Program-made: the position numbers and the translations under genes
Shown: in pieces, positions 47,260 through 62,670 of the stretch
Layout of the letters: each line of letters opens with the position of its first letter
Numbering within the stretch: the stretch's first letter is position 1
Source of the DNA: an uncultured Gammaproteobacteria bacterium
Lineage (GTDB): Bacteria > Patescibacteriota > Patescibacteriia > Magasanikbacterales > GWA2-37-8
Assembly (NCBI GenBank): GCA_964407865.1
Contig: CAYOXC010000001.1
Location: forward strand, 267,978 to 331,977
Direction of reading: 5' to 3'
DNA length: 64,000 nt
The notes under the pieces: generated by a model
The model's input: only the letters and a program-made list of their open reading frames with translations
Told to the model about the DNA's origin: nothing
Database searches by the model: none

Positions 47260-48104
47260 GCATTCATTTTTAAAAAAGGCGTATGATTTTGACGATTAAA
47301 ATTATCTTCTTTTTTAGATTCAGCAAAACAAAAGTATTCAATAAAATTTTCTCTCTCACTATTCTTTGAAAAATAATTATAAAATTCATTCCATAATTTT
47401 AAGGCCTCAATCTGTTTTGATTGCGGGGTTTCGCTTAATAAATAATTTTTAATGAGATCGGCGCTTGATAATTCTACTCGTTTTGAATTAATTGCCTCAA
47501 AAATATCTGACTCCTCTGCAGTGTGACTTAACTCAATAATAACAAACTCAACACCTTGAAATATGAAATTATAAATTTGATTAATTTGTTTTTTTGTCAT
47601 ACCAGTAAAAAGCTCATCGAAAGTTTCGATTGCCAATACCACATTTTCTGATAAAGTTCTGTGTTCACTTGTATAGACATCAATATTATCGCCATTCCAA
47701 ATTACAGCCTTAAAAAATTCATTTCTTTGCGTTTCATTCAAATCAATGTCCAATCTTTGAAATGTGGTTTTACTAAACCATTGTTTTATATCTCTTTTAT
47801 TATCATCGTCGAGCTTGCCTGAACGCAATAAGCAACGTAATAAAATAATTATTGTAATTATGCGTTGTTGGCCGTCAACTATATAAACTTGTTTGTTTTT
47901 ATAGTCTTTAGTAAGCAATGTCCCCAGATATAAAGTACGTTTATCTTTAATACAAACCTCAATATCTGCTACCAACTGTTCAATTAATTCCCTATTCCAC
48001 GCATAAAATCTTTGATATGGCGGAATAACAATTGTATTTTGAAAAAATTTTGTTAAAAAAATACACGGCACCGGGCTTACTATATTTTTTTTAAAGTTTA
48101 TCAT
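47256..48104 (-). CDS. GmrSD-family N-terminal half (DUF262 / ParB-like nuclease domain)
   Basis: 282 aa; VIPPYQRFYAWNRELIEQLVADI matches the DUF262 [IV]PxYQRxYxW core. Confidence 0.7.
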   Translation of the reverse strand: MINFKKNIVSPVPCIFLTKFFQNTIVIPPYQRFYAWNRELIEQLVADIEVCIKDKRTLYLGTLLTKDYKNKQVYIVDGQQRIITIIILLRCLLRSGKLDDDNKRDIKQWFSKTTFQRLDIDLNETQRNEFFKAVIWNGDNIDVYTSEHRTLSENVVLAIETFDELFTGMTKKQINQIYNFIFQGVEFVIIELSHTAEESDIFEAINSKRVELSSADLIKNYLLSETPQSKQIEALKLWNEFYNYFSKNSERENFIEYFCFAESKKEDNFNRQNHTPFLKMNA

Positions 48105-48119
48105 ACTTTATAAAGCTTA

Positions 48120-48641
48120 CTAATTTGGATTAGATAGACCTAATTTAAATAATGGCAAATATTCAAAATAATATTGACAGCCCACAGAAATAATATAATC
48201 AAGGACGTCTTTATATTGTGGTTTACGAAACCAGTCGCTTAGTATATAAATATATTCAACTTCAATATTTAACGGCGCCATCAATTTAGCATACTGTTTT
48301 CTTTTAAAATCACAAGTCTGTAATTTTTCATCAACCGAGCCGGCAACTTTTTGAAATTTAACCTCAATAACAAATAATGTATTGTTAATAATTACATACA
48401 AGGCCTCATCAGGTAAAAGCTTTTTCGATAATATTTTTTTATAATTAACACCCTTAAATTCGAGAAATTTATATAAGGCATTTTTTCTATAGCTTCGCGC
48501 AACTTCTTTATCCTGAAAAAAAATTACCGAACCTTTAACAGCATATCCTTTTTTCTTTTTCAGAAGTGAAAGAATATCTATTTCCTTTTCAAAATTTAAG
48601 CCTGTAATAGTGTTTCCACCCCCAACGCCTTTTTCTTTCAT
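48120..48641 (-). CDS. Putative type II restriction endonuclease
   Basis: 173 aa; PDEALYVIINNTLFVIEVKFQ fits PD-(D/E)xK; 4-nt overlap with the methyltransferase gene. Confidence 0.5.
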   Translation of the reverse strand: MKEKGVGGGNTITGLNFEKEIDILSLLKKKKGYAVKGSVIFFQDKEVARSYRKNALYKFLEFKGVNYKKILSKKLLPDEALYVIINNTLFVIEVKFQKVAGSVDEKLQTCDFKRKQYAKLMAPLNIEVEYIYILSDWFRKPQYKDVLDYIISVGCQYYFEYLPLFKLGLSNPN

Positions 48642-49471
48642 AATTTTATATCTTTTAAACGTTTAACAGATAGATCCAAATATTTTTTCTCCAAATCAAT
48701 ACCGACAAATTTTCTGTTATTTAATATCGCTGCCAAACCTGTCGTGGCCGAACCAGAAAATGGATCTAAAACAATATCACCCTTATCAGTGCTTGCTAAA
48801 ATAATTCTTACCAATAAATCAATTGGTTTTTGAGTTGGATGTTTACCAAATTTTTTCTCATCTTTTTTCGGTGGATAAATTGACCAGACGCTTCGCATTT
48901 GTAAATTTGGTTTTTTTATAAAATCTTCTGACCAATCACCGTTTTTCATCAAACCATAATTAAACTTGTGTTTTCCTTTTTTATCTTTCCTCGCCCAAAT
49001 CAAAGTCTCATGACTAGCGGTAAAAAAACGACAACTTAAATTAGGCGACGCGTTCGGCTTGAACCATGCGATATCGTTTAAAATATGAAATTTTTCTACC
49101 TGTAATGCAAAACCGCATTGATATATTGAATGATACGTACCGCTTATCCAAATCGTACCGCCCGGCTTTAAAACTCGCTGACATGCTTTTATCCATGAAA
49201 GGTGAAATTCAAAATCTTTTTTAACACCATTGCTTATATCCCATTTACCTTTGTTTACACTAACCATTTTTCCGCCATCACAAGTAAAACCGCCGTTAGA
49301 CAAAAGATAAGGGGGATCTGCAAAAATCATGTCGATGGAATTTTCAGGCAACTGTGCCAAGGTATTTAAGCAGTTATCACGATATAAAACAAAATCCCCT
49401 TTCTGAAAATAGGGTTTTTTTGCAATTTTTGATAAAATCTTGGTCATTTTACTCTTTGCCTTTTTGGGCAT
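48638..49471 (-). CDS. DNA methyltransferase (N4-cytosine/N6-adenine, beta class)
   Basis: 277 aa; IFADPPY (motif IV) precedes DPFSGSATTG (motif I). Confidence 0.85.
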   Translation of the reverse strand: MPKKAKSKMTKILSKIAKKPYFQKGDFVLYRDNCLNTLAQLPENSIDMIFADPPYLLSNGGFTCDGGKMVSVNKGKWDISNGVKKDFEFHLSWIKACQRVLKPGGTIWISGTYHSIYQCGFALQVEKFHILNDIAWFKPNASPNLSCRFFTASHETLIWARKDKKGKHKFNYGLMKNGDWSEDFIKKPNLQMRSVWSIYPPKKDEKKFGKHPTQKPIDLLVRIILASTDKGDIVLDPFSGSATTGLAAILNNRKFVGIDLEKKYLDLSVKRLKDIKL

Positions 49472-49581
49472 AACTTAACTAATGGTTATATTTTACCATT
49501 TTAATTATATAATCGAAAAAAGTTATCCACTATGATCAACATATAATAAATAATCAATTTTAAAACACGTACTCTCAACTA

Positions 49582-50427
49582 TTAAATCGGGCAGGTGTTT
49601 TTGCCAATGGCGGCGTATAGTCCGCACCAGCTAAATACAGCTTCAAATACAACGAAACCGGAAATAAACAAAAGCCAGGGGCTCCATAAAGTGGTAATGG
49701 CCCAAATAAGCAGGCCAATACCAATCGCCAAACGAATCATCCTGTCCGCGAACCCGATATTATGTCGCTTTTTGCGAATCGCGTTTTTGGCCAATTTTCT
49801 AAGTGCTAACCGATACAAAAATCCTGCTATAAAAGCCAAGATATACATAACAAGTATATACCCCCAGCCAAAAGGAGACTTGATTAAACTTATCGGAGAC
49901 TCTTTAAAAAAATCACGTTTTAATCTCGGAATAATCTGTAGGGCGCTAGCTATCTCTTTTCCATTAAAAGATTCAATATTGCCGACGGCAAGAGAATATT
50001 TACCTGTATTGTCAGCGCTGGAAACGATTATGATGTATTTGCCGCCGTCAACATTTGCTCTATAATCACCGCCGTCCCAATAATTACTCTGTCCAAAAAA
50101 CTCAAACATCTTTTCCCAACTGGCATTACTGCCACCAACGACATCGAGCGTCTCATCCCCCTTTCGTATTTCCGCCTGAACATCTTTTTTGGAATCCATT
50201 GCATACGGCATCAAAATACCGACATAAAGCTCAAAATTCTCCGCTGATTCAATCGTATAAACATGAGGCGAACCAATTAGTTCGCCATAATATGCTTTTG
50301 ACACCTCGGGATCAACTACCTCTGTTGCCTCACTTTCAACAAGCCTTGGCTGATGAGCAAACGCTGTATTAGCGGTGACAGCAAAAAAGGCTATCGTTAA
50401 AAAGGTAAAAAAAATAATTTTTTTCAT
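49582..50427 (-). CDS. Secreted domain fused to C-terminal DUF2892-like two-TM module
   Basis: 281 aa; signal peptide; C-terminal hydrophobic hairpin ending ...FSWCGLYAAIGKNTCPI. Confidence 0.45.
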   Translation of the reverse strand: MKKIIFFTFLTIAFFAVTANTAFAHQPRLVESEATEVVDPEVSKAYYGELIGSPHVYTIESAENFELYVGILMPYAMDSKKDVQAEIRKGDETLDVVGGSNASWEKMFEFFGQSNYWDGGDYRANVDGGKYIIIVSSADNTGKYSLAVGNIESFNGKEIASALQIIPRLKRDFFKESPISLIKSPFGWGYILVMYILAFIAGFLYRLALRKLAKNAIRKKRHNIGFADRMIRLAIGIGLLIWAITTLWSPWLLFISGFVVFEAVFSWCGLYAAIGKNTCPI

Positions 50428-52589: not shown

Positions 52590-52997
52590 TTATTTATTTA
52601 AAAATGTAATTGTCAACTGTAAAACCGAGGCGAATGAAACCCAAAGCAAATATGGAATATTGACAAGCGCGACCCAGCGGGCGTGAGGCCAAATGGCAAT
52701 CATAGCCCAAATGAGTGTGCCGAGAACGAGAAGGATGTCTATGGCGGCGAGCCAGTTGTTCTGCAGACCGAACTGTAGCGGAGTGAAAGCTAGATTAAAA
52801 ACAAGATTTAAAATAAAAGGCAGAAAAACCAGCCAGGTGATTTTCTTTTGCAAAACCAGAGCAAACGCCCAGCCGAAAGAAATGGCGATAAGAATATACA
52901 AAACAGTCCAAACCGGACCAAAAATCCACGACGGTGGCGCCCAGCTCGGTTTGATCAAAGTTTGATACCAGCTATATGTTGGTGTAACATTTGCCAT
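52590..52997 (-). CDS. tspO: TspO/MBR family (tryptophan-rich sensory protein)
   Basis: 135 aa; YQTLIKPSWAPPSWIFGPVWTVLY matches the TspO signature. Confidence 0.75.
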   Translation of the reverse strand: MANVTPTYSWYQTLIKPSWAPPSWIFGPVWTVLYILIAISFGWAFALVLQKKITWLVFLPFILNLVFNLAFTPLQFGLQNNWLAAIDILLVLGTLIWAMIAIWPHARWVALVNIPYLLWVSFASVLQLTITFLNK

Positions 52998-53070
52998 ATT
53001 TAGCTAAAATTTAATGAAAAACATATCTAAATTATACTACTTTTTACCCTTTAGCGTCAAAGACTATTTA

Positions 53071-53162
53071 TTGACATTTTTGTCGACAACTGCTACTGTT
53101 TACTGTTTCGTACATTTACAAAAAAATAGCCCCGGAAAGGCTATACAAAAAAGGAGAAAGAA
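53071..53162 (+). promoter_or_regulatory. Promoter/5'UTR cassette copy 1
   Basis: TTGACA at 53071; 17-nt spacer; TACTGT; ACTGTTT ACTGTTT direct repeat; UTR hairpin ATAGCC-ccggaaa-GGCTAT; AAGGAG RBS. Repeated at 54339 and 55659. Confidence 0.5.
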
Positions 53163-54074
53163 ATGTATGTAGCGAGCACAAAAGATGTCCTGGCAGATAT
53201 CGCCAGGAGTATATGGAAAGATTTTTTAAGACCGCTCTTAATTTTTCTTGTCAAAGCATTTGCTGTTTGTCTCGCACTTTGCATCATCGCCTATATCGTC
53301 ATGCTCTTTATGGCTCATTCAGCCATCAAAAAAATGACCGATCCGGATAATACGGAATTCCAAACTTTTGCTAGCGCGATACCACTATTCTGCACTGCAA
53401 AAGAAATTGAAGAAAACGAAGAAGAATTCGCTCTGTTGGCTGACTTTGCCAACGATGTTGAAAGGAAAAAAAATAAATGCACCAATTCGCTTGGTGACGC
53501 CTGGGACTGCGCTTCCGAAGCATGGTCGGCACTTGACGACACTGGAACATACAAGAAAGCCTATCAGAAAGGCAAACGGTTAAACCGGGCAAGAAAGAAA
53601 GTCAAAGGCATAATCGAGCGGACTGTCAAACGTATAAAGGCGATTGAGCCATATGACGAAAACAGCGCCGAGCTGAAAAAAGATGCTCTCTCGCTTGCCG
53701 TCTATATAAACAATAATGCAAACGCATGGGATGTGGCAATAAACAGTGAACGTATTGTAAATGAAATTGGACGACGTGGCGATAAAATCTTTGAAAAAGA
53801 TAATTTGAAAAAAATTTCCAAACATATTTGGGATAAATACCCCCAATCTATCGTCCTGATTTTCGACCCTGTTTACAAAATATTCGCTGACGAGGATAGT
53901 CTCAAAGAAGCAGCGTGGCGTTCAAAGACATTCCGCGAAGCGATGAGTGACGACGGCTGTCTTACCAACATATATACTGACAATATCGCTCCGGCTAGAT
54001 TTGTCGGCTTTGCTGCACTGATGGGAATGATGCAAAAAGATGAGCCGACAGAAGAAGCTGACGATACCGAATAA
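53163..54074 (+). CDS. Membrane-anchored hypothetical protein, paralog A
   Basis: 303 aa; TM anchor; shares DPDN, CTNS, RTVKRI.AIE.YDEN.A.LK.D..SLA.Y.NNN and RSKTFR blocks with 54431-55321. Confidence 0.6.
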   Translation: MYVASTKDVLADIARSIWKDFLRPLLIFLVKAFAVCLALCIIAYIVMLFMAHSAIKKMTDPDNTEFQTFASAIPLFCTAKEIEENEEEFALLADFANDVERKKNKCTNSLGDAWDCASEAWSALDDTGTYKKAYQKGKRLNRARKKVKGIIERTVKRIKAIEPYDENSAELKKDALSLAVYINNNANAWDVAINSERIVNEIGRRGDKIFEKDNLKKISKHIWDKYPQSIVLIFDPVYKIFADEDSLKEAAWRSKTFREAMSDDGCLTNIYTDNIAPARFVGFAALMGMMQKDEPTEEADDTE

Positions 54075-54104
54075 TCTTTCTTTCCTCTTGCCTATTCTAG
54101 GCCA

Positions 54105-54172
54105 CCCCGCACAACAACGCGGGGCCCAGCCCCGCACAGACGCTTGCGTATTGTGCGGGGTTTTTCTTTTTA
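54105..54172 (+). terminator. Tandem-hairpin rho-independent terminator after paralog A
   Basis: CCCCGC-acaacaac-GCGGGG then CCCCGCACA...TGTGCGGGG followed by TTTTTCTTTTT. Confidence 0.6.
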
Positions 54173-54204
54173 ATTGCGTAATCCGATTAATCTATACGTG
54201 ATTG

Positions 54205-54338
54205 CCGGTAGAATATCTGGAGAACTCTATCGGGCCTGCCCGGTAAAATATCTGGAGAACTCTATCGGGCCTGCCCAGTAGAATCTTTGGAGAGCTCTAT
54301 CGGGCCTGCCCGGTAGAAGCCGAAGGCGTTCTACCGGG
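54205..54338. repeat. 35-bp tandem direct repeat x3, closed by a 30-bp palindrome
   Basis: Unit CCGGTAGAATATCTGGAGAACTCTATCGGGCCTGC, 3 slightly variant copies. Ends with CCCGGTAGAAgccgaaggcgTTCTACCGGG immediately before TTGACA. Confidence 0.85.
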
Positions 54339-54430
54339 TTGACATTTACCTGCATAACTGCTAATGTTTACTGTTTCGTTCATTTACAAAAAAATAGCCC
54401 CGGAAAGGCTATACAAAAAAGGAGAAAGAA
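54339..54430 (+). promoter_or_regulatory. Promoter/5'UTR cassette copy 2
   Basis: About 95% identical to 53071-53162. Confidence 0.5.
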
Positions 54431-55321
54431 TTGAATACCGACAACAAACAAATTGATTCACCATATTCAGTGTGGCCTGGATTAAAAAAAGCTCTCAAAG
54501 TAATATTTCTTCTATTTTCTATAATTGTCATTGGTGCACTAATATGTATATATATTGTCACCGATAAGCTGGTACACAAATTGATCGATCCCGATAATCA
54601 CGAAATAGAGTTGATAGCCAGCATGATGCCACTGTGGTGTAGTGTCTATGAATTTCAAGAACATGCTGATGAATATGAAGAATTCGCTAATTTTATAGAT
54701 GAAGCATTACAAAAGAAGGATGAATGCACTAATTCGCCCCTCGGCAGCATTAAATGTGCAAAACAATTGTACGGAACACTTAAAAATCCCGAATCCTATT
54801 TTCGTGGAATTCAAAAAGGTTCGCAGCTATATCAGGCACATAATGAATTCAAGAGTCTTGCTTCACGAACAGTAAAAAGAATTGAAGCAATTGAAACCTA
54901 CGACGAAAATACTGCCAAACTAAAACAAGATTTGGTTTCATTGGCCAGGTACGTTAACAACAACCTAAACATTGTCTCTTTGGTTACCAAATCGGATGAA
55001 ATTCTTGAAGGAATAGAGGAACGTGCGATAATTCTAGGAAATGACGAGCAGCTAATAGATAATATTATAGTGAATACTATGGATAAGTATTATCCTGAAA
55101 TCTTTATAGTACTCCATCCGTTGGTTAGTAAAATTTCCTTTGCTATAATAGTCAACCACGATGAGTTTAATGATGTTAAACTTGAACGCTTATTTGTGCG
55201 CTCTAAAACATTCAGAGATGAGTGGAACCACGGCTGCATCACTAAGATGACATGGCCGGCTGAAAAAAGAAATGTTCGATCACTAATCGAACACATTGTT
55301 CACACCGTAGATAATTGGTAG
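54431..55321 (+). CDS. Membrane-anchored hypothetical protein, paralog B
   Basis: 296 aa from a TTG start at the same spacing from the RBS as the ATG of paralog A. Confidence 0.6.
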   Translation: MNTDNKQIDSPYSVWPGLKKALKVIFLLFSIIVIGALICIYIVTDKLVHKLIDPDNHEIELIASMMPLWCSVYEFQEHADEYEEFANFIDEALQKKDECTNSPLGSIKCAKQLYGTLKNPESYFRGIQKGSQLYQAHNEFKSLASRTVKRIEAIETYDENTAKLKQDLVSLARYVNNNLNIVSLVTKSDEILEGIEERAIILGNDEQLIDNIIVNTMDKYYPEIFIVLHPLVSKISFAIIVNHDEFNDVKLERLFVRSKTFRDEWNHGCITKMTWPAEKRNVRSLIEHIVHTVDNW

Positions 55322-55354
55322 TACCTTTCCTCGGCCACATACTGATCATATCTC

Positions 55355-55421
55355 CCCGCACAACAATGCGGGGCCCAGCCCCGCACAGACGCTTGCGTAT
55401 TGTGCGGGGTTTTTCTTTTTA
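55355..55421 (+). terminator. Tandem-hairpin terminator after paralog B
   Basis: Nearly identical to 54105-54172. Confidence 0.6.
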
Positions 55422-55453
55422 ATTGCGTAATCCGATTAATCTATACGTGATTG

Positions 55454-55657
55454 CCGGTAGAATATCTGGAGAACTCTATCGGGCCTGCCCGGTAAAATAT
55501 CTGGAGAACTCTATCGAGCCTGCCCAGTAGAATCTTTGGAGAACTCTATCGGGTCTGCCCGGTAGAATATCTGGAGAACTCTATCAGGCCTGCCCGGTAG
55601 AATCTTTGGAGAGCTCTATCGGGCCTGCCCGGTAGAAGCCGAAGGCGTTCTACCGGG
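55454..55657. repeat. 35-bp tandem direct repeat x5, closed by the same 30-bp palindrome
   Basis: Same unit as 54205-54338 with five copies; copy number differs between the two loci. Confidence 0.85.
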
Positions 55658-55658
55658 A

Positions 55659-55746
55659 TTGACATTTACCTGCATAACTGCTACTGTTTACTGTTTCGTT
55701 CATTTACAAAAAATGGCCCCGGAAAGGCTGTAACAAGGAGCGAGAA
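55659..55746 (+). promoter_or_regulatory. Promoter/5'UTR cassette copy 3
   Basis: TTGACATTTACCTGCATAACTGCTACTGTTTACTGTTTCGTTCATTTACA...GGCCCCGGAAAGGC. Confidence 0.5.
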
Positions 55747-56601
55747 ATGAAAAATGAAAACAAGTCAAAAAAATCCCCCAGTCAGCTTTTTTGGTGGCCA
55801 ATCTGTCTTGTGGTTATTGTGCTCAGCGCCGTCCTTATTTCTACCGATACTTCGGCGCAAGAGCAGGTGACAAAATTCCGTAATCCGGATGCGAAATTGG
55901 AAAATTGCTTTGAAATCGGTTTTGATTTTGACAAAGGCATCTACATGAACTGGACCGGCAAGGCCGAGGTGAGATACAAGCAATTCGAAAACAAACTGAA
56001 ACGATATGTACGGCACAACAAGGACGACGAAGAAGCCGCCGAAATGCTAAAATTCCTACAAGAGGAAGTCGGACCGATTATGCCCGACTATTTCAATGGA
56101 GACTACGACGCGCGAGTAAAGATCAACAATATTGCCGAGAAGGATAAGAAGAAAAAAGAATGGCTTGAGGGCTCAATCGGTGGCAAGGCAATGACCAAGA
56201 AAAAAGGCGCGGTCAGCCGCGTCCGAGGATACCAATTCCTGAAAGTCTATGATGAAAAAGCTGTGAGCAAGGGGTATGCTAAAGCAAATATTCAAATCCC
56301 TCACGATGTGGAAGCTCTCGGACTGAAACTGTTTACTCTTGACGTAAACGCTGCCGGAGGCAGTGCCTCTGATACGATCACGATTTACAACCGACCGGAC
56401 GGCAAGCCACAGGCTGAAGTCAAAGCCGGCGCGAAAATGTGGGCGCTCGACGGCACCGATGGTTGGATGCGCGTCACCTACGTTGACGACAAGGGAGACC
56501 TTGTCTGGGGCTACGTGCTCGGCCCGAAAATTCAAAAAAAAGTTGAGGAGCTCTCTGGCCAGCCCGTTCCAAAAAGAGAAAAGGGTAAGAAGAAATTTTA
56601 A
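55747..56601 (+). CDS. Membrane-anchored protein with C-terminal SH3b-like domain
   Basis: 284 aa; TM anchor; C-terminal ITIYNRPDGKPQAEVKAGAKMWALDGTDGWMRVTYVDDKGDLVWGYV resembles bacterial SH3 domains. Confidence 0.55.
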   Translation: MKNENKSKKSPSQLFWWPICLVVIVLSAVLISTDTSAQEQVTKFRNPDAKLENCFEIGFDFDKGIYMNWTGKAEVRYKQFENKLKRYVRHNKDDEEAAEMLKFLQEEVGPIMPDYFNGDYDARVKINNIAEKDKKKKEWLEGSIGGKAMTKKKGAVSRVRGYQFLKVYDEKAVSKGYAKANIQIPHDVEALGLKLFTLDVNAAGGSASDTITIYNRPDGKPQAEVKAGAKMWALDGTDGWMRVTYVDDKGDLVWGYVLGPKIQKKVEELSGQPVPKREKGKKKF

Positions 56602-56630
56602 CAAATAACAGCCGAAAAGGAGGCAAAAAA

Positions 56631-56915
56631 ATGGGTGCACGAACTGTTCGAAACACTTGTTCTTCATGTGATGGTAGTGGAAAGACATGGAGCAGTGAAA
56701 GGTGCTCCAGCTGTGACGGCAAAGGTTGGGTCAGTGGAATATTTGGTGGTGAAAAAGTCTGTTCCCGTTGTGACGGCGACGGCAACATCAGCAGGCACAA
56801 CGTTACCTGTTCCAGTTGTAACGGCAAAGGCTACAGCGTCTCGGTAGAAGAAGAGAGTGAACAGCCAAGGCGTAACCGACGTGGCGAGTACGTATGGGAT
56901 AGAGACGACGACTAA
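56631..56915 (+). CDS. Stand-alone DnaJ-type zinc-finger mini-protein (4x CxxCxGxG)
   Basis: 94 aa with CSSCDGSGK, CSSCDGKGW, CSRCDGDGN, CSSCNGKGY and an acidic tail; AAGGAGG RBS. Confidence 0.6.
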   Translation: MGARTVRNTCSSCDGSGKTWSSERCSSCDGKGWVSGIFGGEKVCSRCDGDGNISRHNVTCSSCNGKGYSVSVEEESEQPRRNRRGEYVWDRDDD

Positions 56916-57211
56916 CATTTCTCCGCTTTGCACTTTCCTTTTTATCCGTTCTGGATAAACTAACCCCGCGCTATACGCGGGGATTTTTTTATAACAATCA
57001 TGTTAATAAAAAATAAATTATTTACAATCTCGTTTTCTAAATAGTTCATTTAACAACTGGGCGGTCAGAAAATGACAGGAGCAACGAGATCAATCTGCAA
57101 CTACTCACTCATACCCTGTTCATTCCGAATAAAGCCCATATAAATCAATGCTTGGTTTTATATTTATAAAAAGGACTTTCGCTAAAAATTAAGTAAAAAT
57201 TCTGTCGGATA

Positions 57212-57240
57212 TTGACTAAATTAATTTTTTCATCTATACT
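57212..57240 (+). promoter_or_regulatory. Sigma70-like promoter of the first small CxxC gene
   Basis: TTGACT-17 nt-TATACT. The 5'UTR at 57270-57288 carries TCTACCGG-aacaa-CCGGTA, the same half-site found in the 35-bp repeats. Confidence 0.5.
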
Positions 57241-57311
57241 TTGCATTCAGTTCTTTCTAAAATAGTAGATCTACCGGAACAACCGGTACACTCACAAAAG
57301 CGGAGGCTGGA

Positions 57312-57536
57312 ATGTTGGCGCAGAAACAAGTTAAGAAACGCGAACTGAAAAAAGAAGAGTTTCACATTATCTGCGAAAGTTGTGGCATGATACAATATTT
57401 CAACGCAACAAGCGAACTGGCGGCAAAAATCACAGCGCAAAATAATCACGTGGTGTATTGCGAACGCCACAGATCCCGGTGTGTTTCCCCAAAAATGAAA
57501 ATGACACGTCCTAACGGGACTACTGTCTACATTTAG
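57312..57536 (+). CDS. Small CxxC protein, paralog 1
   Basis: 74 aa; FHIICESCG...A..I....H..YCERHRSRC. Confidence 0.5.
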   Translation: MLAQKQVKKRELKKEEFHIICESCGMIQYFNATSELAAKITAQNNHVVYCERHRSRCVSPKMKMTRPNGTTVYI

Positions 57537-57680
57537 CCTTCCGAACTACCAAACCCTGCCACAAGCAGGGTTTTATCATACACGATTACGCGACAAGCTA
57601 ATTAGGGATATAATCGGGTTGACAATCACATATTTCCACGCTAAGGTACGGGCGGTTCTTTTTAAATAAGGGAGGTAATA

Positions 57681-57896
57681 ATGGCATCAAAATGGAGATC
57701 TGCGCCAAAAAAAGATACATTGGCGAAAAATAATATTATTGTTTACAATTTCTTCTGTTCGCAGTGTGAATTTGCTACCACAGTGGAAGCTTTAAATCTG
57801 CAAGAAGCGCTGGGGGAATCATTCAGAAAACACCATAATCACCACAACCAGGAAGGCAGCAGTTGTGAGGGCAAATACTACGAAATTTTTGATTGA
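57681..57896 (+). CDS. Small CxxC protein, paralog 2
   Basis: 71 aa; YNFFCSQCEF...EA....F..HH.HH...SCEG; TTGACA promoter and AGGGAGG RBS upstream. Confidence 0.5.
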   Translation: MASKWRSAPKKDTLAKNNIIVYNFFCSQCEFATTVEALNLQEALGESFRKHHNHHNQEGSSCEGKYYEIFD

Positions 57897-57948
57897 ACTG
57901 AAAAAAACACTCCCGCCTAAATGGCGGCAGTCAAACAAGGAGGAGATA

Positions 57949-58419
57949 ATGGAACAAACGGACAAACTGCCCATGATTTTTGAAGACAAAATGCCCCGCC
58001 TCAAACAACTGATGCGGATACCGCAGAAGAAACCGGTGTATGTACTCGTCGTAGATGACAACGAATACGCCGTCATCGGTATGCGGACCATTCTCGGACA
58101 CTGGAACAATCTCGGCGCCACCACGACCATCGTCTCGAACGGACAAATGCCACACATCGATCTCAACAACCACATCATCCTGATCGATTCGGATATGGCT
58201 GGAGTCAAAGACGAAGACATCTACAACTGGCTCTCTGATCAGTCCTACGCCGGCATCGTCGCGTCGACTCTCTACTACGGCACAGACACACCTGCGCGTG
58301 TCGGCAGGCACTACCGATACCACTTCGGCTACAAAGTTGGCATCGGCACGTCTTTCGCGACCGCGATCGAATTCGTCAAATTCATGAACGAACTGATCGC
58401 CGATGCCGAAAAACACTAA
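57949..58419 (+). CDS. Atypical receiver (REC)-like domain protein
   Basis: About 157 aa from the ATG after CAAGGAGG. VYVLVVDDNEY (acidic pocket), IILIDSDMAG (putative phospho-Asp), GIVASTLYYG (Thr/Ser) and HFGYKVG (Lys) sit in REC-consistent order. Confidence 0.45.
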   Translation: MEQTDKLPMIFEDKMPRLKQLMRIPQKKPVYVLVVDDNEYAVIGMRTILGHWNNLGATTTIVSNGQMPHIDLNNHIILIDSDMAGVKDEDIYNWLSDQSYAGIVASTLYYGTDTPARVGRHYRYHFGYKVGIGTSFATAIEFVKFMNELIADAEKH

Positions 58420-58491
58420 AAAATGAGGTTCGCGCACATCATGATAAAAACACTTGGATTCGACATTGGCCAAGAATAGAAAGGAGGAGCC

Positions 58492-58707
58492 GTGGAAGAA
58501 AAAAATGATGAAGAAAGACTGGTCGGAAATTATCATTTTCTCTGTCTCGAGTGCGACTTCGGAATTAACATTCAAAGCACGGACATAGAAGCAGCCACAC
58601 GGGAAGCTTTTATCCGGCATGATGCCTACTTCGAAGGCATCATGTTCAAATGCAGTGCTGATCACTACCGGATTACCGGCCCGGACGGAACGTTCGTTGA
58701 ATTCTAG
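58492..58707 (+). CDS. Small CxxC protein, paralog 3
   Basis: GTG start 5 nt after AAAGGAGG; YHFLCLECDFG...EA.IRH....KCSADH; hairpin terminator downstream. Confidence 0.5.
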   Translation: MEEKNDEERLVGNYHFLCLECDFGINIQSTDIEAATREAFIRHDAYFEGIMFKCSADHYRITGPDGTFVEF

Positions 58708-58867
58708 CCAAAATCAAACAAGTCTCCCACCCGCTCATTGCCCACACCCCTCGCTATCAAGCGAGGTTTTTTCTTCTGCAATTTAATATAACCCATACCT
58801 AATTGACAAAACTGCCAAAATACGCTAACTTTGTTCAAATGCACATTTCACCAAAAAGGAGGTACTA

Positions 58868-59125
58868 ATGGGTTTTAACAAAACTGACGATGAGTCTTGT
58901 GATGAAATATTCCAAGAGAAAGTCACGAAAAAAAAGTACACGCTAGAATTACTCACCACCAGTAGTCGCAACTATTCGTTCAAGTGCTTGGACTGCGATT
59001 TCGCTGTAATAGTGAACACAAGCAGTAGAAGCGAGGCCGTGACAGAGGCCTTGTACCAACACGACATTTTTCACAGCAAAATTAGCGACAAGGGTTGCGA
59101 TGCCGACAACTTTGAACTACGCTAA
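58868..59125 (+). CDS. Small CxxC protein, paralog 4
   Basis: 85 aa; YSFKCLDCDF...EA..QHDIFH...GCDAD; TTGACA promoter at 58803 and AAGGAGG RBS. Confidence 0.5.
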   Translation: MGFNKTDDESCDEIFQEKVTKKKYTLELLTTSSRNYSFKCLDCDFAVIVNTSSRSEAVTEALYQHDIFHSKISDKGCDADNFELR

Positions 59126-59338
59126 AAAATTTTCAAAAAAGACAAAAAAATTGCCCTTCAATCACCGGTCTGACCGTTAGCAGGCCGGTTTTTATTTATA
59201 TTTGATATTTTGCCTACCCCCTTGACAAAACCGTTATTTTATGCTATACTAGAGACCTCAAAATCGTGCTTCCAAGTAGAAAATAGTCGAATTTCTGCAG
59301 AGGCCGTCTTTGCAGCTTAGTTCACTATCTAACCTATT

Positions 59339-59542
59339 ATGAACGGAAAAATCAAAAGATTAACAGACAAAGGGTTCGGTTTTATCGCTCCTGAGGGAGA
59401 AGATGGAAAGGATATTTTCTTCCATTCCTCTGCTCTTCAGGGTGTTACCTTCGACGAATTACGCGAAGGAGATGCCGTCACCTTTGACACTGAAGATTCA
59501 GACAAGGGCCCTCGCGCTACCAATGTAGCTCGCGTCGCCTAA
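59339..59542 (+). CDS. cspA: Cold-shock protein (CspA family)
   Basis: 67 aa; GKIKRLTDKGFGFIAPEGEDGKDIFFHSSAL RNP motifs; TTGACA-17-TATACT promoter with about 100-nt leader; terminator at 59559-59585. Confidence 0.9.
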   Translation: MNGKIKRLTDKGFGFIAPEGEDGKDIFFHSSALQGVTFDELREGDAVTFDTEDSDKGPRATNVARVA

Positions 59543-59558
59543 ATCTAAAAAATAAATG

Positions 59559-59585
59559 CCCCGACCTAGCGTCGGGGTTTTTATT
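59559..59585 (+). terminator. Rho-independent terminator after csp
   Basis: CCCCGAC-ctagc-GTCGGGG followed by TTTTTATTTT. Confidence 0.7.
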
Positions 59586-59722
59586 TTATTTGTTTTATAA
59601 ACGCCTGATAAAATTTTACCGATTGTTTTGGTTGTGGGCATTGTGCACAATTGACAAAATATTTTAAATGCTCTATCATAATGCTCTGTATTTTTTCAAA
59701 CACTCATCCAACTAGGAGGGAA

Positions 59723-59956
59723 ATGATGCTGGCCAAAGGTAAAATACACAATTTTGAGTTCGTCTGTTCATCCTGCGGATACATCGCAAACGTGGCCGCA
59801 TATGATCCGGCCGAAGCGGTAAAATCCGGTTTTCAACTTCACGACATACGTCAAAGAGACAGCAAAATGCCGTGCTACAACAACCGGAAAAAATGCGGAC
59901 TCCGGCAACTCAAAACCGAGGAGAAATCACAGCTTAATTTAGCGTTCTTTTTTTAA
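59723..59956 (+). CDS. Small CxxC protein, paralog 5 (GFQLHDI subfamily)
   Basis: Start ATG after CTAGGAGGG; FEFVCSSCGY...GFQLHDIRQ...PC...KKC; TTGACA-17-TATCAT promoter upstream. The track ORF extends further upstream to 59651. Confidence 0.55.
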   Translation: MMLAKGKIHNFEFVCSSCGYIANVAAYDPAEAVKSGFQLHDIRQRDSKMPCYNNRKKCGLRQLKTEEKSQLNLAFFF

Positions 59957-59978
59957 CTAACAAAAGGAAGGTAACGAA

Positions 59979-60185
59979 ATGCCTAAAAAGGCTCCCGTAC
60001 ATGTCTATGAATTTACCTGCTTGATCTGCGGATACAGTACGTATGTGACTGCATCCTATGTCGCAGAGGCGATTGCGCCAGGATTTCAACTGCATGATAT
60101 CCACCAGGAAGAATCCCGCAACAAATGCTTCAACCCTGAAAAGAAATGTCGAGTTAAGAATATCGAAAATCAAAAACTAGTATAA
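59979..60185 (+). CDS. Small CxxC protein, paralog 6 (GFQLHDI subfamily)
   Basis: 68 aa; YEFTCLICGY...GFQLHDIHQ...KCFNPEKKC; AAGGAAGG RBS; co-transcribed with paralog 5. Confidence 0.55.
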   Translation: MPKKAPVHVYEFTCLICGYSTYVTASYVAEAIAPGFQLHDIHQEESRNKCFNPEKKCRVKNIENQKLV

Positions 60186-60315
60186 CCTCCACCTTTCTTG
60201 TTCTTTACATTGACCGATCTGTTCTGGGTCGGTTTTTTAATATTTGACAAAAAATTTTAAATAGCATAAAATGCTGTTCTCTAAAATGTTCTTTTCAACA
60301 ACCTGGGAGGGTAAA

Positions 60316-60516
60316 ATGATAGAAATCAAAGAAAGATATAAATTCCATCTTACTTGCATTCGCTGCGGGTACAAAGTCGAAATCACCACCTTTTCCGGTG
60401 AACAAGCGATAACGGCCGGTTTCCAGCTACATGATATACGGCAGCACAGAAAAGAATTTCCCTGCGTCAGCCCGTTACGAAAATACACAATCAGGTGTAT
60501 GGGCAAGGTGAAATAA
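60316..60516 (+). CDS. Small CxxC protein, paralog 7 (GFQLHDI subfamily)
   Basis: Start after TGGGAGGG; FHLTCIRCGY...GFQLHDIRQ...PC...RC; TTGACA-17-TAAAAT promoter upstream. The track ORF extends further upstream to 60271. Confidence 0.55.
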   Translation: MIEIKERYKFHLTCIRCGYKVEITTFSGEQAITAGFQLHDIRQHRKEFPCVSPLRKYTIRCMGKVK

Positions 60517-60620
60517 GTAAAGAAGATGTCCCGATGGACGAGAAAGTACACACTGAGTCAAACCAACCAAGCTGATCCTCGGCTAACCACTCCTTCAACA
60601 ACAAGGGAATGGAGGAAAAC

Positions 60621-60839
60621 GTGGAACGAAGATGTGTAGATGACGACTATTACTTCACCTGCTTCGGCTGTGGCTTTGGCACGACGATCCACACATCGAA
60701 TCTGAAGACCGCTTCAGAAGAAGCATTGCGGCAACACAAGGAACACTACCCGTCAGTCATGTTGCTTTGCCGCGCCGACCACTGCAAAATCGTATGCCCG
60801 AACGGAACAGTCGTTTGTTTCGAGGCTTCCTACCCCTAA
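60621..60839 (+). CDS. Small CxxC protein, paralog 8
   Basis: GTG start 5 nt after GGAGG (alternative ATG at 60609); YYFTCFGCGFG...EA.RQH....LCRADHC; terminator 60863-60892. Confidence 0.5.
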   Translation: MERRCVDDDYYFTCFGCGFGTTIHTSNLKTASEEALRQHKEHYPSVMLLCRADHCKIVCPNGTVVCFEASYP

Positions 60840-60862
60840 CCCCTAGTTCTTTTCCAAAAACA

Positions 60863-60892
60863 CCCCGCTAACAAGCGGGGGTTTTCTTTTTT
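60863..60892 (+). terminator. Rho-independent terminator ending the small-gene array
   Basis: CCCCGC-taacaa-GCGGGGG followed by TTTTCTTTTTT. Confidence 0.7.
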
Positions 60893-60938
60893 GCATTTTA
60901 CCAATTGACATTTTATATAAGTTGTCCACAGCTTATTT

Positions 60939-60967
60939 TTGACAGGTGAACAAATGTTCACTATAAT
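60939..60967 (+). promoter_or_regulatory. lexA promoter with embedded LexA box
   Basis: TTGACA(60939)-17 nt-TATAAT(60962). The spacer contains the perfect palindrome GTGAAC-aaat-GTTCAC at 60946-60961, matching the Gram-positive-type LexA/Cheo consensus. Confidence 0.65.
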
Positions 60968-61002
60968 CAAATAGAGAAAGTTATCAAGCATTAAATAATT
61001 GT

Positions 61003-61575
61003 ATGCCAAACAAATATCTCCCCTATTTTATTAGATTTTATAAACGCCACCACCGTCTGCCAAGCTATCGCGAATTCATGGAACTATCCGCGCTTAAATC
61101 CACCAACGCGGTTCATAAAATTACAGCCAAGCTGGAAGAAGAAGGATTTTTACGGCGCGATGAATCAGGACGATTGACGCCAGGGCGCAAATTTTTGGGT
61201 CTACCACTTTTAGGCGATATTGCCGCCGGCTTCCCCTCTGCTGCCGAAGAAGAACTGTGCGACACAATGACTCTGGATGAATACCTGGTGCCTCACAAAG
61301 AAGCTACCTACATGCTCAAGGTATCCGGCGACAGCATGATTGAAGCTGGTATTATGCCGGGCGATCTTGTTTTGGTTGAACGAGGCCGTGAAGCGCGCAA
61401 CGGCGATGTAGTGGTGGCTGAGGTGGATAAATCCTGGACCCTAAAATATTTTGACAAAAAAGGCAAACAGGTGCGACTAATTCCAGCCAACAAAAAATAC
61501 AAGCCGATTGTACCGACTGATGAATTAAACATAGCCGCTGTAGTAATCGGGGTTGTGCGGAAGTATAAGACTTAA
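61003..61575 (+). CDS. lexA: LexA repressor (S24 peptidase)
   Basis: 190 aa; N-terminal wHTH; Ala-Gly cleavage site (IAAGFP); catalytic Ser in VSGDSM; Lys in VVVAEVDKSWTLK. Confidence 0.85.
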   Translation: MPNKYLPYFIRFYKRHHRLPSYREFMELSALKSTNAVHKITAKLEEEGFLRRDESGRLTPGRKFLGLPLLGDIAAGFPSAAEEELCDTMTLDEYLVPHKEATYMLKVSGDSMIEAGIMPGDLVLVERGREARNGDVVVAEVDKSWTLKYFDKKGKQVRLIPANKKYKPIVPTDELNIAAVVIGVVRKYKT

Positions 61576-62295: not shown

Positions 62296-62431
62296 AAATA
62301 AGAGTTAATTATTGGCTATAGTTTACACTAATAAATCACGGCTGTAAAAAAACACCCACGCCCGCGCAATCTCCTGAAGAGACGGCGAGCGTGGGGTCCG
62401 GCCCGAAGAAAGAACTACCGATGTGAAGCGG

Positions 62432-62647
62432 TCAGTCGGGCAAATTGACCACTTTACCGAGGTTCAGACGATTCGCTTCCTCCCGAGCTCTACGGAACAA
62501 ATTCTCGCGAGCCGCCTGCGGCGAACTGACATCTGTCTCGGTGACGGTAAAAATCGATTTTGCCGGAGGCACAATACTGGGGGCCTTCCCCAGAAGAGTG
62601 GCGGCATAGTACTCTCCCCCCAATTTGTAAACTACGAGACTGAGCAT
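62432..62647 (-). CDS. Small hypothetical protein (71 aa), divergent from the Y-family polymerase gene
   Basis: ATG preceded by AGGGAGG with a 5-nt spacer; GC-rich coding sequence; hairpin plus T-run terminator downstream (about 62350-62400). Confidence 0.45.
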   Translation of the reverse strand: MLSLVVYKLGGEYYAATLLGKAPSIVPPAKSIFTVTETDVSSPQAARENLFRRAREEANRLNLGKVVNLPD

Positions 62648-62670
62648 GGTAACCTCCCTATTTTTTTCAA

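What the first reader, a model, noticed from the sequence alone, without database searches (positions are those of the whole stretch)
54205..55657. 35-bp tandem repeat arrays (x3 and x5) ending in a palindrome directly abutting the -35 box; TCTACCGG half-site shared with another promoter
Repeats of CCGGTAGAATATCTGGAGAACTCTATCGGGCCTGC (3 copies at 54205-54309, 5 copies at 55454-55628) are each closed by the 30-bp palindrome CCCGGTAGAA-gccgaaggcg-TTCTACCGGG, only 0-1 nt before TTGACA. Copy number differs between the two otherwise identical cassettes, like a VNTR or slipped-strand contingency locus.

The half-site TCTACCGG recurs in inverted orientation (TCTACCGG-aacaa-CCGGTA, 57270-57288) in the 5'UTR of the first small CxxC gene. 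That suggests a common DNA-binding regulator links the paralog cassette and the small-protein array.

The position upstream of -35 fits an activator iteron array or UP-element mimic. Repeat-number variation could tune expression.
Basis: seen in the sequence. Interest (0 to 1): 0.65.

Follow-up and report, generated by a model that had tools for sequence, protein, structure and literature searches.

The report
Palindromic 35-bp repeat arrays at promoters
Two neighbouring genes of an uncultivated, probably Patescibacteria-type bacterium are each preceded by a lineage-specific array of 35-bp palindromic repeats that ends in a perfect palindrome touching the promoter's -35 box. It is most likely an expanded protein-binding site, interesting but not a new principle.

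Summary
There are 3.3 and 5.3 copies of a 35-bp unit at 54205-54318 and 55454-55637. Each array closes with CCCGGTAGAA-N10-TTCTACCGGG, 0 or 1 nt before TTGACA.

Each unit is itself an imperfect inverted repeat of the arm CCGGTAGA. The arrays lie inside a terminator-to-start-codon cassette that is 97-100% identical between two adjacent intergenic regions. The flanking genes are only 35% identical or unrelated, so the cassette has been homogenised by recombination. The short array equals the long one minus exactly two units, with a chimeric unit at the breakpoint.

Homologous promoters in five related metagenomic lineages lack any array. Two of them still carry TACCGG or CCGGTA directly 5' of the -35, which none of the other TTGACA sites in 105 kb does. 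The repeat matches nothing in genome, metagenome, viral, phage or plasmid collections, nor in Rfam.

Best reading (about 0.4): an expanded array of half-sites for an unidentified DNA-binding protein acting at about -40. Rivals are a REP/MITE-like hairpin element inserted at the -35, and a neutral minisatellite.

Population copy-number variation could not be tested. The UP-element idea is rejected.

The parts
53071..53162 (+). Promoter and 5'UTR of g1 (copy IG-0). TTGACA at 53071, TGC-TACTGT extended -10 at 53091-53099, UTR hairpin TAGCCCCGGAAAGGCTA and RBS. There is no repeat array upstream.
   Evidence: (family D2).
53163..54074 (+). g1, 303 aa. N-terminal transmembrane helix and four conserved Cys. 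No Pfam, PHROG, NCBIfam or PADLOC family.
   Evidence: Family of only 17 proteins in 1.84 billion representatives.
54105..54171 (+). Intrinsic terminator of g1. Hairpin CCCCGC..GCGGGG, then CCCCGCACA-N13-TGTGCGGGG followed by TTTTTCTTTTT. This is where intergenic module A begins.
   Evidence: It is 97/98 identical, together with the spacer, to the copy in module B.
54172..54204 (+). 33-nt spacer ending in GATTG. It is identical in both modules.
   Evidence: Weak similarity of TATACGTGATTGCCGG to the promoter-upstream sequence of L015 (p about 0.02).
54205..54309 (.). Array A: three 35-bp units. Each is L arm CCGGTAGA, 13 nt, R arm TCTATCGG, then linker GCCTGC. Unit A3 is a chimera of B3[1-19] and B5[20-35].
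54309..54338 (.). Closing perfect palindrome CCCGGTAGAA-gccgaaggcg-TTCTACCGGG, centred about -50.5. Its half-sites sit at about -60 and -40. As single-stranded DNA it folds to a 13-bp hairpin of -12.2 kcal/mol.
   Evidence: (I1).
54339..54367 (+). Promoter of g2: TTGACA-N14-TGC-TAATGT.
   Evidence: The architecture is conserved in ten homologous promoters from the window and five related lineages.
54368..54430 (+). 5'UTR of g2. It is 62/63 identical to the g1 UTR, although the -35 to -10 part matches module B. Module A is therefore a mosaic.
54431..55321 (+). g2, 296 aa, TTG start. Paralogue of g1 at 35% identity.
55354..55453 (+). Terminator and spacer of module B.
55454..55628 (.). Array B: five 35-bp units, with a higher-order 70-bp pattern (unit types 1,1',2,1'',2').
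55628..55657 (.). Closing palindrome of module B, 30/30 identical to that of module A. It is followed by GATTG|ACA, so the array is flanked by direct GATTG repeats at 55449-55453 and 55657-55661.
   Evidence: (I5). Logan contig L001 starts exactly here.
55659..55746 (+). Promoter (TTGACA-N14-TGC-TACTGT) and 5'UTR of g3.
55747..56915 (+). g3 (284 aa, N-terminal signal or TM segment, unrelated to g1 and g2), followed by a 94-aa DnaJ-type CxxCxGxG zinc-finger protein at 56631-56915.
57270..57290 (.). Isolated inverted pair TCTACCGG-aacaa-CCGGTAca. It lies at +24 to +44 of the promoter TTGACT-17-TATACT (57212-57240), ahead of the first small CxxC gene (57312-57536).

Best explanation
The arrays are a lineage-specific expansion of a cis-acting protein-binding site at the upstream edge of a conserved sigma-70-type promoter (TTGACA-N14-TGC-TAnnGT).

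The functional unit is the arm (T)TCTACCGG(G) / CCGGTAGA(A).
- One copy, at about -36 to -45, touches the -35 hexamer. Its perfect inverted partner lies two helical turns upstream.
- Further upstream, 3 or 5 degenerate inverted pairs follow at a strict 35-bp period. Arm starts are spaced 21 and 14 bp apart.

Proposed mechanism: a dimeric or oligomerising sequence-specific protein occupies the perfect palindrome. From about -40 it either contacts RNA polymerase (sigma region 4 or alpha-CTD) to activate, or blocks polymerase access to repress. The weaker upstream copies would add cooperative or titrating sites, so unit number would set the dose-response.

What is shown:
- The anatomy of the arrays.
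- That the promoter is real, from its conservation in relatives.
- That unit number changed by unequal recombination.
- That the whole terminator-array-promoter module is kept nearly identical between two intergenic regions by gene conversion.

What is inferred:
- That a protein binds at all, and which protein.
- The sign of the effect.
- Any role of copy number.
For: 1. The same arm occurs with three unrelated spacers: unit loop TATCTGGAGAAC, closing loop GCCGAAGGCGT and AACAA at 57270. Tandem duplication alone does not explain this.
2. The promoter-proximal arm is perfect and identical in both modules, and it abuts the -35 at 0 or 1 nt.
3. In homologous promoters of related lineages, whose -35/-10 spacers have fully diverged, TACCGG (L012) or CCGGTA (L016) lies within 16 nt 5' of TTGACA. 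Only 4 of 98 TTGACA sites in 105 kb have this, about 0.75 expected, and all four belong to this promoter family.
4. The isolated pair at 57270 lies in a neighbouring promoter region. Such a pair is found in 0.5% of simulated windows.
5. The array sits after a strong terminator and before the promoter. No Rfam family matches, and the single units are poor hairpins (-3.0 kcal/mol, z = -0.6). A DNA-level rather than RNA-level role is therefore favoured.
6. The two regulators recognisable in the window have their own, different, single palindromic operators. These are the CIRCE-like site at 19335-19361 for HrcA and GAACAAATGTTC at 60948 for LexA. Palindromic operators at promoters are thus the local norm.
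Against: - No candidate binding protein was found. Pfam scans of essentially all ORFs of at least 120 aa in the window show only HrcA and LexA as DNA-binding regulators.
- Substitutions among the eight units are spread evenly over arms, loop and linker: 4 of 8 variable positions fall in the 16 arm positions. The upstream units therefore show no site-specific constraint and look like a young amplification.
- g1 uses the same promoter without any array, and no relative has an array. The array is not needed for promoter function.
- The centre of the closing palindrome is itself self-complementary (GCC-GAA-GGC). This suits a nucleic-acid hairpin better than a protein operator.
- Arm spacing differs among contexts, with start-to-start distances of 20-21 and 13-14 bp.
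- Only one genome carries the arrays.
Confidence: 0.4

Rival explanations
1. A REP/BIME- or MITE-like selfish palindromic element. A small hairpin element with terminal inverted repeats CCGGTAGAA/TTCTACCGG inserted right at the -35 and duplicated the target, which regenerated TTGACA. It was then amplified internally by slippage and copied to the neighbouring intergenic region by gene conversion. Any effect on expression would be incidental.
For: - In module B the array is bounded by 9-bp inverted termini and flanked by direct GATTG repeats at 55449-55453 and 55657-55661 (I5).
- In a sister lineage, L015 compared with L012 shows a clean filled-versus-empty site. An unrelated 52-57-bp palindromic element sits at exactly the same place, the -35 of the homologous promoter, with TTGAC duplicated.
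- The arms of that element, CCCTGTTWAAT, recur at other loci in related genomes L009 and L010.
- The closing palindrome is a strong hairpin (-12.2 kcal/mol, z = -5.9) with a self-complementary centre.
- The array is absent from all relatives and from every collection searched.
Against: - There are no further copies in the other 60 kb of the window, except the partial site at 57270.
- In module A the right-hand flank is G-TTG, not GATTG, and three of the five bases are fixed anyway by the -35.
- No transposase or RAYT was seen among the window's ORFs.
- The TACCGG/CCGGTA motif next to the -35 in relatives that lack the element suggests the arm pre-existed there.
- A 30-bp monomer is far below the usual MITE size.
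Confidence: 0.25
2. A functionally neutral minisatellite. A hairpin-prone sequence upstream of the promoter expanded by replication slippage or unequal crossing-over. It persists because the whole intergenic module is repeatedly homogenised by gene conversion.
For: - The period is exactly 35.0 bp, and loop and linker are as conserved as the arms.
- A higher-order 70-bp pattern exists, and array A equals array B minus exactly 70 bp with a chimeric unit.
- The modules are 97-100% identical next to genes that are 35% identical, and module A is a mosaic.
- Other local duplications occur in the window, for example 40029-40328 vs 42369-42668 at 99%.
- Relatives function without the array.
Against: - It does not explain why the same arms occur with unrelated spacers in the closing palindrome and at 57270.
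- It does not explain the perfect proximal palindrome or the recurrence of TACCGG next to the -35 in other lineages.
- Units differ by up to 6/35, so the array is not brand new and has been retained.
Confidence: 0.2
3. A structural DNA element. The closing palindrome, and the quasi-palindromic array as a whole, extrude as a cruciform under negative supercoiling. This would insulate the promoter from the upstream terminator region or make it sensitive to supercoiling.
For: - The closing palindrome folds as a 13-bp hairpin.
- Whole arrays fold far better than shuffles: z = -3.2 for DNA of array A and z = -7.1 for RNA of array B.
Against: - High foldability is an automatic consequence of repeated inverted arms.
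- The single units fold weakly.
- Nothing here tests extrusion in vivo.
Confidence: 0.07
4. An iteron-type replication origin or a sopC/parC-like centromere. The direct repeats would bind an initiator or partition protein, and the inverted repeat at the promoter would autoregulate.
For: - The layout resembles mini-F and other iteron plasmids, where iterons are followed by an inverted-repeat operator at the rep promoter (PMC13028717).
- It also resembles sopC, 43-bp repeats each holding an inverted repeat (my own knowledge).
- Gene strand switches from - to + at about 53 kb, and GC skew flattens there.
Against: - The downstream genes are membrane or secreted ORFans with no Rep, ParA or ParB signature.
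- There is no DnaA-box cluster.
- Two arrays lie 1.3 kb apart in front of unrelated genes.
- There is no similarity to any plasmid or phage record.
Confidence: 0.04
5. An assembly artefact. Unit numbers, or the second copy, would be mis-assembled in a metagenome-assembled genome.
For: - Repeats of 105-175 bp within two modules of more than 300 bp that are near-identical are hard for short reads.
- Independent Logan assemblies all break at these modules.
Against: - Independent contigs confirm the palindrome-promoter-g3 junction (L001) and the ends of the g1 flanks (L006).
- The units carry distinct, ordered variants that are shared between the arrays.
- The source contig is 463,612 bp long.
Confidence: 0.03

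Closest known systems
Promoter-upstream repeat tracts that modulate transcription, for example the TAAA tract of Neisseria meningitidis nadA with flanking NadR operators (PMC2791445). From my own knowledge: the 7-bp repeats of Haemophilus hmw and the GAA repeats of Mycoplasma gallisepticum vlhA.
   Same: A repeat tract lies 5' of the core promoter of surface-protein genes. Unit number changes by slippage or recombination and alters how upstream elements or operators relate to the promoter.
   Different: The units here are 35 bp and each carries an inverted repeat of the putative operator arm, so the repeat is the binding-site array rather than a spacer between operators. There are only 3-5 units, and no population switching has been shown.
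Iteron plasmids such as mini-F, pPS10 and pSC101: direct iterons followed by an inverted repeat of the iteron at the rep promoter (PMC13028717).
   Same: Direct repeats end in an inverted repeat built from the same sequence, and that inverted repeat sits at the promoter of the next gene.
   Different: There is no Rep gene, no DnaA boxes and no AT-rich unwinding element. The period is 35 bp rather than about 22 bp, the locus is chromosomal, and there are two arrays in tandem in front of unrelated membrane or secreted proteins.
REP/BIME clusters of enterobacteria, BOX elements of Streptococcus pneumoniae and STAR elements of staphylococci (PMC3532100; the rest is my own knowledge).
   Same: Units of about 35 bp are imperfect palindromes, tandemly reiterated in intergenic DNA, with variable unit number and hairpin potential.
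   Different: Those families are dispersed in tens to hundreds of copies and usually lie in transcribed 3' regions. Here only two adjacent copies are seen in 64 kb, plus one partial site. They lie after a terminator and against a -35, and no RAYT was seen.
PeSL composite terminator/promoter cassettes of T4-like phages (PMC2839356, PMC4122927).
   Same: A stem-loop terminator and a promoter form one conserved intergenic module that is repeated between unrelated ORFans. Its homology ends sharply at the module edges, and the modules show mosaic, recombination-mediated relationships.
   Different: PeSLs are about 70 bp, occur in phages and have no internal tandem repeats. This module is 330-390 bp and sits in a bacterial chromosome region that is syntenic in relatives (cold-shock-domain (CSD) gene, LexA and DinB nearby).
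Tandem and palindromic repeats in upstream regions of Mycoplasma hyopneumoniae genes (PMC5179023).
   Same: In a reduced genome with few transcription factors, repeats near promoters have been proposed as cis-regulatory elements.
   Different: The sequences and organisms are different. Only the title and the start of the abstract of that paper were read here, and function is not demonstrated in this case.

Membership tests
Iteron-type origin with autoregulatory inverted repeat | An initiator (Rep) gene lies directly downstream of the repeats. | tested here: not met
   g2 and g3 have no Pfam, NCBIfam or PHROG hit to any Rep. They have N-terminal TM or signal segments.
Iteron-type origin with autoregulatory inverted repeat | DnaA boxes and an AT-rich unwinding element lie beside the iterons. 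| tested here: not met
   TTATCCACA with up to 1 mismatch: none between 50953 and 55078, and no cluster.
Iteron-type origin with autoregulatory inverted repeat | Direct repeats are followed by an inverted repeat of the same sequence at the promoter. | tested here: met
   This is resemblance in layout only.
Simple-sequence-repeat contingency locus | Short unit (1-9 bp) with high-frequency length variation among cells or strains. | tested here: not met
   The unit is 35 bp. Variation among cells could not be tested, because only short contigs that break at the repeats are available.
REP/BIME-type extragenic palindromes | Imperfect palindromic units of about 35 bp, reiterated. | tested here: met
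   Each unit is CCGGTAGA-N13-TCTATCGG.
REP/BIME-type extragenic palindromes | Many dispersed copies per genome and an associated RAYT (Y1 transposase). | tested here: inconclusive
   There are no other copies in the 64-kb window apart from 57270. No transposase was found among the ORFs scanned.
MITE | Terminal inverted repeats and a target-site duplication. | tested here: inconclusive
   There are 9-bp inverted termini. GATTG is duplicated 5/5 in module B, but the right-hand copy is G-TTG in module A, and TTG is fixed by the -35 anyway. An analogous clean insertion is seen in L015 vs L012.
MITE | Multiple dispersed copies, and empty sites in relatives. | tested here: inconclusive
   The virtual empty site TATACGTGATTGCCGGGTTGAC resembles L015 (p about 0.02) but not L012 (p = 0.54). 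No dispersed copies were found.
CRISPR array | Repeats separated by unique spacers, with cas genes nearby. | tested here: not met
   The units are head to tail without spacers. No cas genes were found among the ORFs scanned.
sopC/parC-type centromere | Adjacent parA/parB (or parM/parR) genes. | tested here: not met
   The neighbours are ORFans, TspO and zinc-finger proteins.
Known RNA family (Rfam) | A match at or near the gathering score. | tested here: not met
   Only sub-threshold chance hits were found in 52900-57400.
PeSL-like composite terminator-promoter cassette (analogy, not homology) | The same terminator-plus-promoter module recurs between unrelated ORFs, with homology ending at the module edges and with mosaic structure. 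| tested here: met
   Relatives have their own repeated terminator modules (L012 87-177 and 1191-1281; L009 about 5690-5790 and 7555-7650).

The most novel reading that the evidence does not exclude
The arrays are a heritable, copy-number-tunable operator 'rheostat'. An as yet unknown regulator of this Patescibacteria-like clade would recognise TACCGG-type half-sites next to the -35 of a conserved promoter family that drives surface-protein genes. In this lineage the site would have been amplified into 4- and 6-site arrays. Unit number, changed by unequal recombination, would set the expression level of each paralogue. That would be a minisatellite-based contingency mechanism in an uncultivated, reduced-genome bacterium.
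Probability: 0.12. Interest if true: 0.6.

Novelty: new variant of a known kind. Interest (0 to 1): 0.35.

Why it matters
Gene regulation in candidate-phyla-radiation bacteria is almost unknown, because they have few recognisable transcription factors and cannot be grown alone. A conserved half-site abutting the -35 of a clade-wide promoter family gives a concrete motif for finding its regulator, for example by DAP-seq or heterologous reporters. Its amplification into arrays of different length in front of paralogous surface-protein genes offers a natural series for asking whether site number tunes expression. The locus is also a clear bacterial example of a terminator-promoter module evolving in concert independently of the genes it separates. 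If the array turns out to be only a hairpin element or a minisatellite, the matter is ordinary.

Tried and rejected
Searches for the repeat elsewhere:
- The unit junction TCTAYCGRGYCTGCCCRGTARAA gave no match in GTDB species genomes or in JGI metagenomes.
- The closing palindrome with a variable loop gave two unrelated hairpins in IMG/VR.
- blastn of module B against phage and plasmid collections gave no match.

Population copy number:
- Exact-protein look-ups for g1, g3, the zinc-finger protein and TspO returned only short Logan contigs (SRR14492171-73) that end at the repeated modules. g2 is not on record.

RNA explanations:
- Rfam gave nothing at gathering or E-value thresholds.
- Single units are poor hairpins.

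Known regulators and replication:
- A LexA box was rejected. The local box is GAACAAATGTTC at the lexA promoter, and no such box is in the g1-g3 promoters.
- HrcA/CIRCE was rejected. A CIRCE-like site lies at 19335.
- An origin of replication was rejected because there is no DnaA-box cluster.

Other ideas:
- 'UP-element mimic' was rejected on composition.
- CRISPR was rejected because there are no spacers.
- g1, g2, g3 and their neighbours have no hits to PHROGs, NCBIfam or PADLOC.
- The small CxxC proteins were tested as candidate DNA binders. The AF2 model is confident (pLDDT 84), but no PDB fold matches at E <= 0.001.
- Arm pairs were sought in related loci and none found.
- Locus searches with the 12-sequence family alignment failed for lack of a conserved stretch. 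The 6-sequence alignment then found 1 genome locus and 2 metagenome loci.
Full report
**Observation**

Tandem Repeats Finder reports two arrays with period 35 and the same consensus, CCGGTAGAATATCTGGAGAACTCTATCGGGCCTGC. One is at 54205-54318 (3.3 copies, 91% matches, score 193). The other is at 55454-55637 (5.3 copies, 88%, score 298). Nothing else in the window comes close.

Each array ends in the same 30-bp perfect palindrome, CCCGGTAGAA-gccgaaggcg-TTCTACCGGG, at 54309-54338 and 55628-55657. TTGACA follows after 0 nt at 54339 and after 1 nt at 55659. TTCTACCGG occurs 8 times against 0.33 expected, always inside the arrays. The site TCTACCGG-aacaa-CCGGTAca at 57270-57290 is also real.

1. Every unit is itself an imperfect inverted repeat: L arm CCGGTAGA, 13 nt, R arm TCTAtCGG, then linker GCCTGC.
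   - L and R arms alternate with start-to-start spacings of 21 and 14 bp.
   - The junction between units is a 22-bp near-palindrome, TCTATCGGGCCTGCCCGGTAGA.
   - The closing palindrome has the same arms, now perfect, but an unrelated centre.

2. The arrays are part of a larger intergenic module. It comprises a two-hairpin intrinsic terminator with a T-run (54105-54171), a 33-nt spacer, the array, the palindrome, the promoter, a 5'UTR with a small hairpin, and the RBS.
   - This module is nearly identical between 54105-54430 and 55354-55746. Identities are terminator plus spacer 97/98, first two units 69/70, palindrome 30/30, and -35 to -10 28/29.
   - The genes it separates are a different matter. 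g1 (53163-54074) and g2 (54431-55321) are 35% identical in protein, and g3 (55747-56601) is unrelated.
   - Homology starts exactly at the terminator and stops at the start codon.
   - g1 has the same promoter and UTR (53071-53162) but no array.
   - Module A is a mosaic. Its -35/-10 part matches module B (28/29, against 22/29 with g1), while its UTR matches g1 (62/63).
   - The modules are therefore being homogenised by recombination or gene conversion, independently of the coding regions.

3. Array A equals array B minus exactly 70 bp. Unit A3 is B3[1-19] joined to B5[20-35]. This is the signature of unequal crossing-over or slippage between units. Unit number has thus changed at least once, but between paralogous copies, not between alleles.

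**The promoter is real**

g1/g2 belong to a tiny family, 17 hits among 1.84 billion representative proteins. g3 has two homologues. I retrieved their loci:
- L007, L008/L011, L009, L010 (a MAG named Candidatus Magasanikbacteria) and L012 for the g1/g2 family.
- L015 and L016 for g3.

L009 and L016 show the same neighbourhood as the window: a cold-shock-domain (CSD) gene and LexA in both, small 70-aa genes in L009, and a DinB-type polymerase in L016. All these genes are driven by a homologous promoter, TTGACA-N14-TGC-[T/C]AnnGT, followed by a conserved 5'UTR motif. This supports the -35 assignment, even though the simple promoter scan missed the weak -10.

With the start site near 54374, the closing palindrome is centred at about -50.5 and its arms lie near -60 and -40.

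**Distribution**

None of the related loci has a tandem array or an arm pair.
- The unit junction has no match in GTDB species genomes or JGI metagenomes.
- The palindrome pattern found only two unrelated hairpins in IMG/VR.
- Module B has no blastn match in phage or plasmid collections.
- Rfam finds nothing.

The array is a lineage-specific novelty, and it is not required for the promoter to exist.

**Evidence that the arm is a recognition sequence**

- The arm appears with three unrelated spacers: the unit loop, the closing loop and the 57270 site.
- The 57270 pair is the only exact half-site outside the arrays. Such a pair occurs in 0.5% of Markov-simulated windows (post hoc). It lies at +24 to +44 of the promoter of the first small CxxC gene.
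- In L012 the sequence 5' of the -35 is GAGATACCGGGG|TTGACA, and in L016 it is AGCCGGTAGCGG|TTGACA. The window has TTCTACCGGG(A)|TTGACA.
- Across 98 TTGACA sites in 105 kb of window and related loci, only four have TACCGG or CCGGTA within 16 nt upstream (about 0.75 expected). All four are promoters of this family.
- The -35/-10 spacers of these promoters have diverged completely between lineages. Retention of this hexamer next to the -35 therefore suggests function.

**Evidence for the mobile-hairpin rival**

- L015 differs from its close relative L012 by a 52-57-bp palindromic insertion exactly at the -35, flanked by duplicated TTGAC.
- The arms of that insertion, CCCTGTTWAAT, recur in L009 and L010. 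Hairpin elements therefore do move in this clade and do land at this spot.
- In the window, the array in module B has 9-bp inverted termini and is flanked by GATTG on both sides. In module A the right copy lacks the A.
- A virtual empty site resembles L015 (p about 0.02) but not L012 (p = 0.54).
- The closing palindrome is a strong hairpin (-12.2 kcal/mol, z = -5.9) with a self-complementary centre. Single units are not strong hairpins (-3.0 kcal/mol, z = -0.6).
- Against this rival: there are no other copies in 60 kb, no transposase was seen, and the half-site is present in relatives that lack the element.

**Evidence for neutrality**

Substitutions among the eight units fall evenly on arms, loop and linker. 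The upstream units therefore show no site-specific constraint.

**Other readings**

- Iteron origin or centromere. The layout resembles iterons followed by an inverted-repeat operator (PMC13028717). However, there is no Rep or Par gene and no DnaA-box cluster.
- LexA and HrcA have their own operators elsewhere: GAACAAATGTTC at 60948 and a CIRCE-like site at 19335.
- UP-element mimicry is excluded by the G+C-rich composition.
- Assembly error is unlikely. Independent Logan contigs confirm the palindrome-promoter-g3 junction, and the units carry ordered private variants. Long reads would be needed to confirm the counts.

**Verdict**

The most likely reading (about 0.4) is an expanded array of binding sites for an unidentified sequence-specific protein that acts at the upstream edge of the promoter. 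The perfect proximal palindrome would be the primary site and the degenerate units auxiliary sites. The whole is embedded in a terminator-promoter module that evolves in concert.

A REP/MITE-like hairpin element (0.25) and a neutral minisatellite (0.2) remain serious rivals. These readings are not mutually exclusive.

In kind, this is a variant of known promoter-proximal repeat systems: nadA-type tracts (PMC2791445), iteron-plus-inverted-repeat layouts, BIME/BOX-like palindromic clusters, and PeSL-like terminator-promoter cassettes (PMC4122927). The sequence itself is unreported. Contingency-type switching is untested.

Noticed in passing
window 57312-60839: Eight paralogous genes of 66-85 aa share a CxxC...H...C motif. 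Each has its own consensus promoter (TTGACA-N17-TAnnnT) and terminator, and the run is interrupted by a receiver-like 156-aa ORF and a cold-shock gene. AlphaFold on their alignment gives pLDDT 84 with a beta-beta-alpha-beta-beta fold, but no PDB fold matches at E <= 0.001. A homologue is present in L009 (9483-9701).
   Followed up: partly
L015 913-975 compared with L012 200-215: A palindromic insertion of about 52-57 bp sits exactly at the -35 of the homologous promoter, flanked by duplicated TTGAC (MITE-like). Its arms, CCCTGTTWAAT, recur in L009 (10886-10908 as a terminator hairpin, and 12326) and in L010 (5985), next to the lexA promoter.
   Followed up: partly
window 53100-53125, 54368-54393 and 55688-55712, and related loci: All promoters of the g1/g2/g3 family share a 5'UTR motif, GTTCnnn(n)[G/T]ACAA, shortly after the -10, in five lineages. 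It may be a second, clade-wide operator.
   Followed up: no
window 60890-61003 and 62744-64000: The lexA promoter carries a Cheo-type LexA box, GAACAAATGTTC (60948-60959), between the -35 and the -10. A DinB/Y-family polymerase-like ORF starts at 62744 and runs off the window. L009 and L010 have TTATCCACA directly before the lexA -35.
   Followed up: partly
window 19335-19361: A CIRCE-like inverted repeat, TTATCACTC-N9-GAGTGATAA, lies upstream of the hrcA-grpE-dnaK-dnaJ cluster.
   Followed up: yes
window 40029-40328 vs 42369-42668, and 41590-41667 vs 42274-42351: A 300-bp stretch is 99% identical between two HAD-hydrolase paralogues (40020-40709 and 42363-43046). A second 78-bp repeat nearby is 82% identical. 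This is further evidence of local duplication or gene conversion in this genome.
   Followed up: no
window 22796-22850 vs 24043-24097, and 24223-24315: A terminator module, AAAAATCTGCCCCAAGGGCAGATTTTT, is repeated. An inverted partial copy of the tRNA-Ser 3' end lies next to tRNA-Ser(GGA) at 24294-24379. It may be the scar of an integrated element.
   Followed up: no
window 44000-50000: A low-GC island (29-34% G+C) carries a split GmrSD-type restriction enzyme (46351-48104), a PD-(D/E)XK nuclease with an N6/N4 DNA methyltransferase (48120-49471), and a DUF2779 protein. Related loci also have defence genes next to the g-family cluster: MmeI and NERD in L009, and a Schlafen-like helicase, MazG and DUF3800 in L016.
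   Followed up: partly
window 52997-53163: All long ORFs to the left are on the - strand, and the main ORFs from 53163 to 61575 are on the + strand. Cumulative GC skew stops falling here. No DnaA-box cluster was found, so this is not shown to be an origin.
   Followed up: partly
window 62300-62740: A G+C-rich stretch of about 440 bp between a HExxH protein gene and the dinB-like gene has no long ORF and no Rfam match, apart from a 71-aa ORF on the - strand with no Pfam hit.
   Followed up: partly
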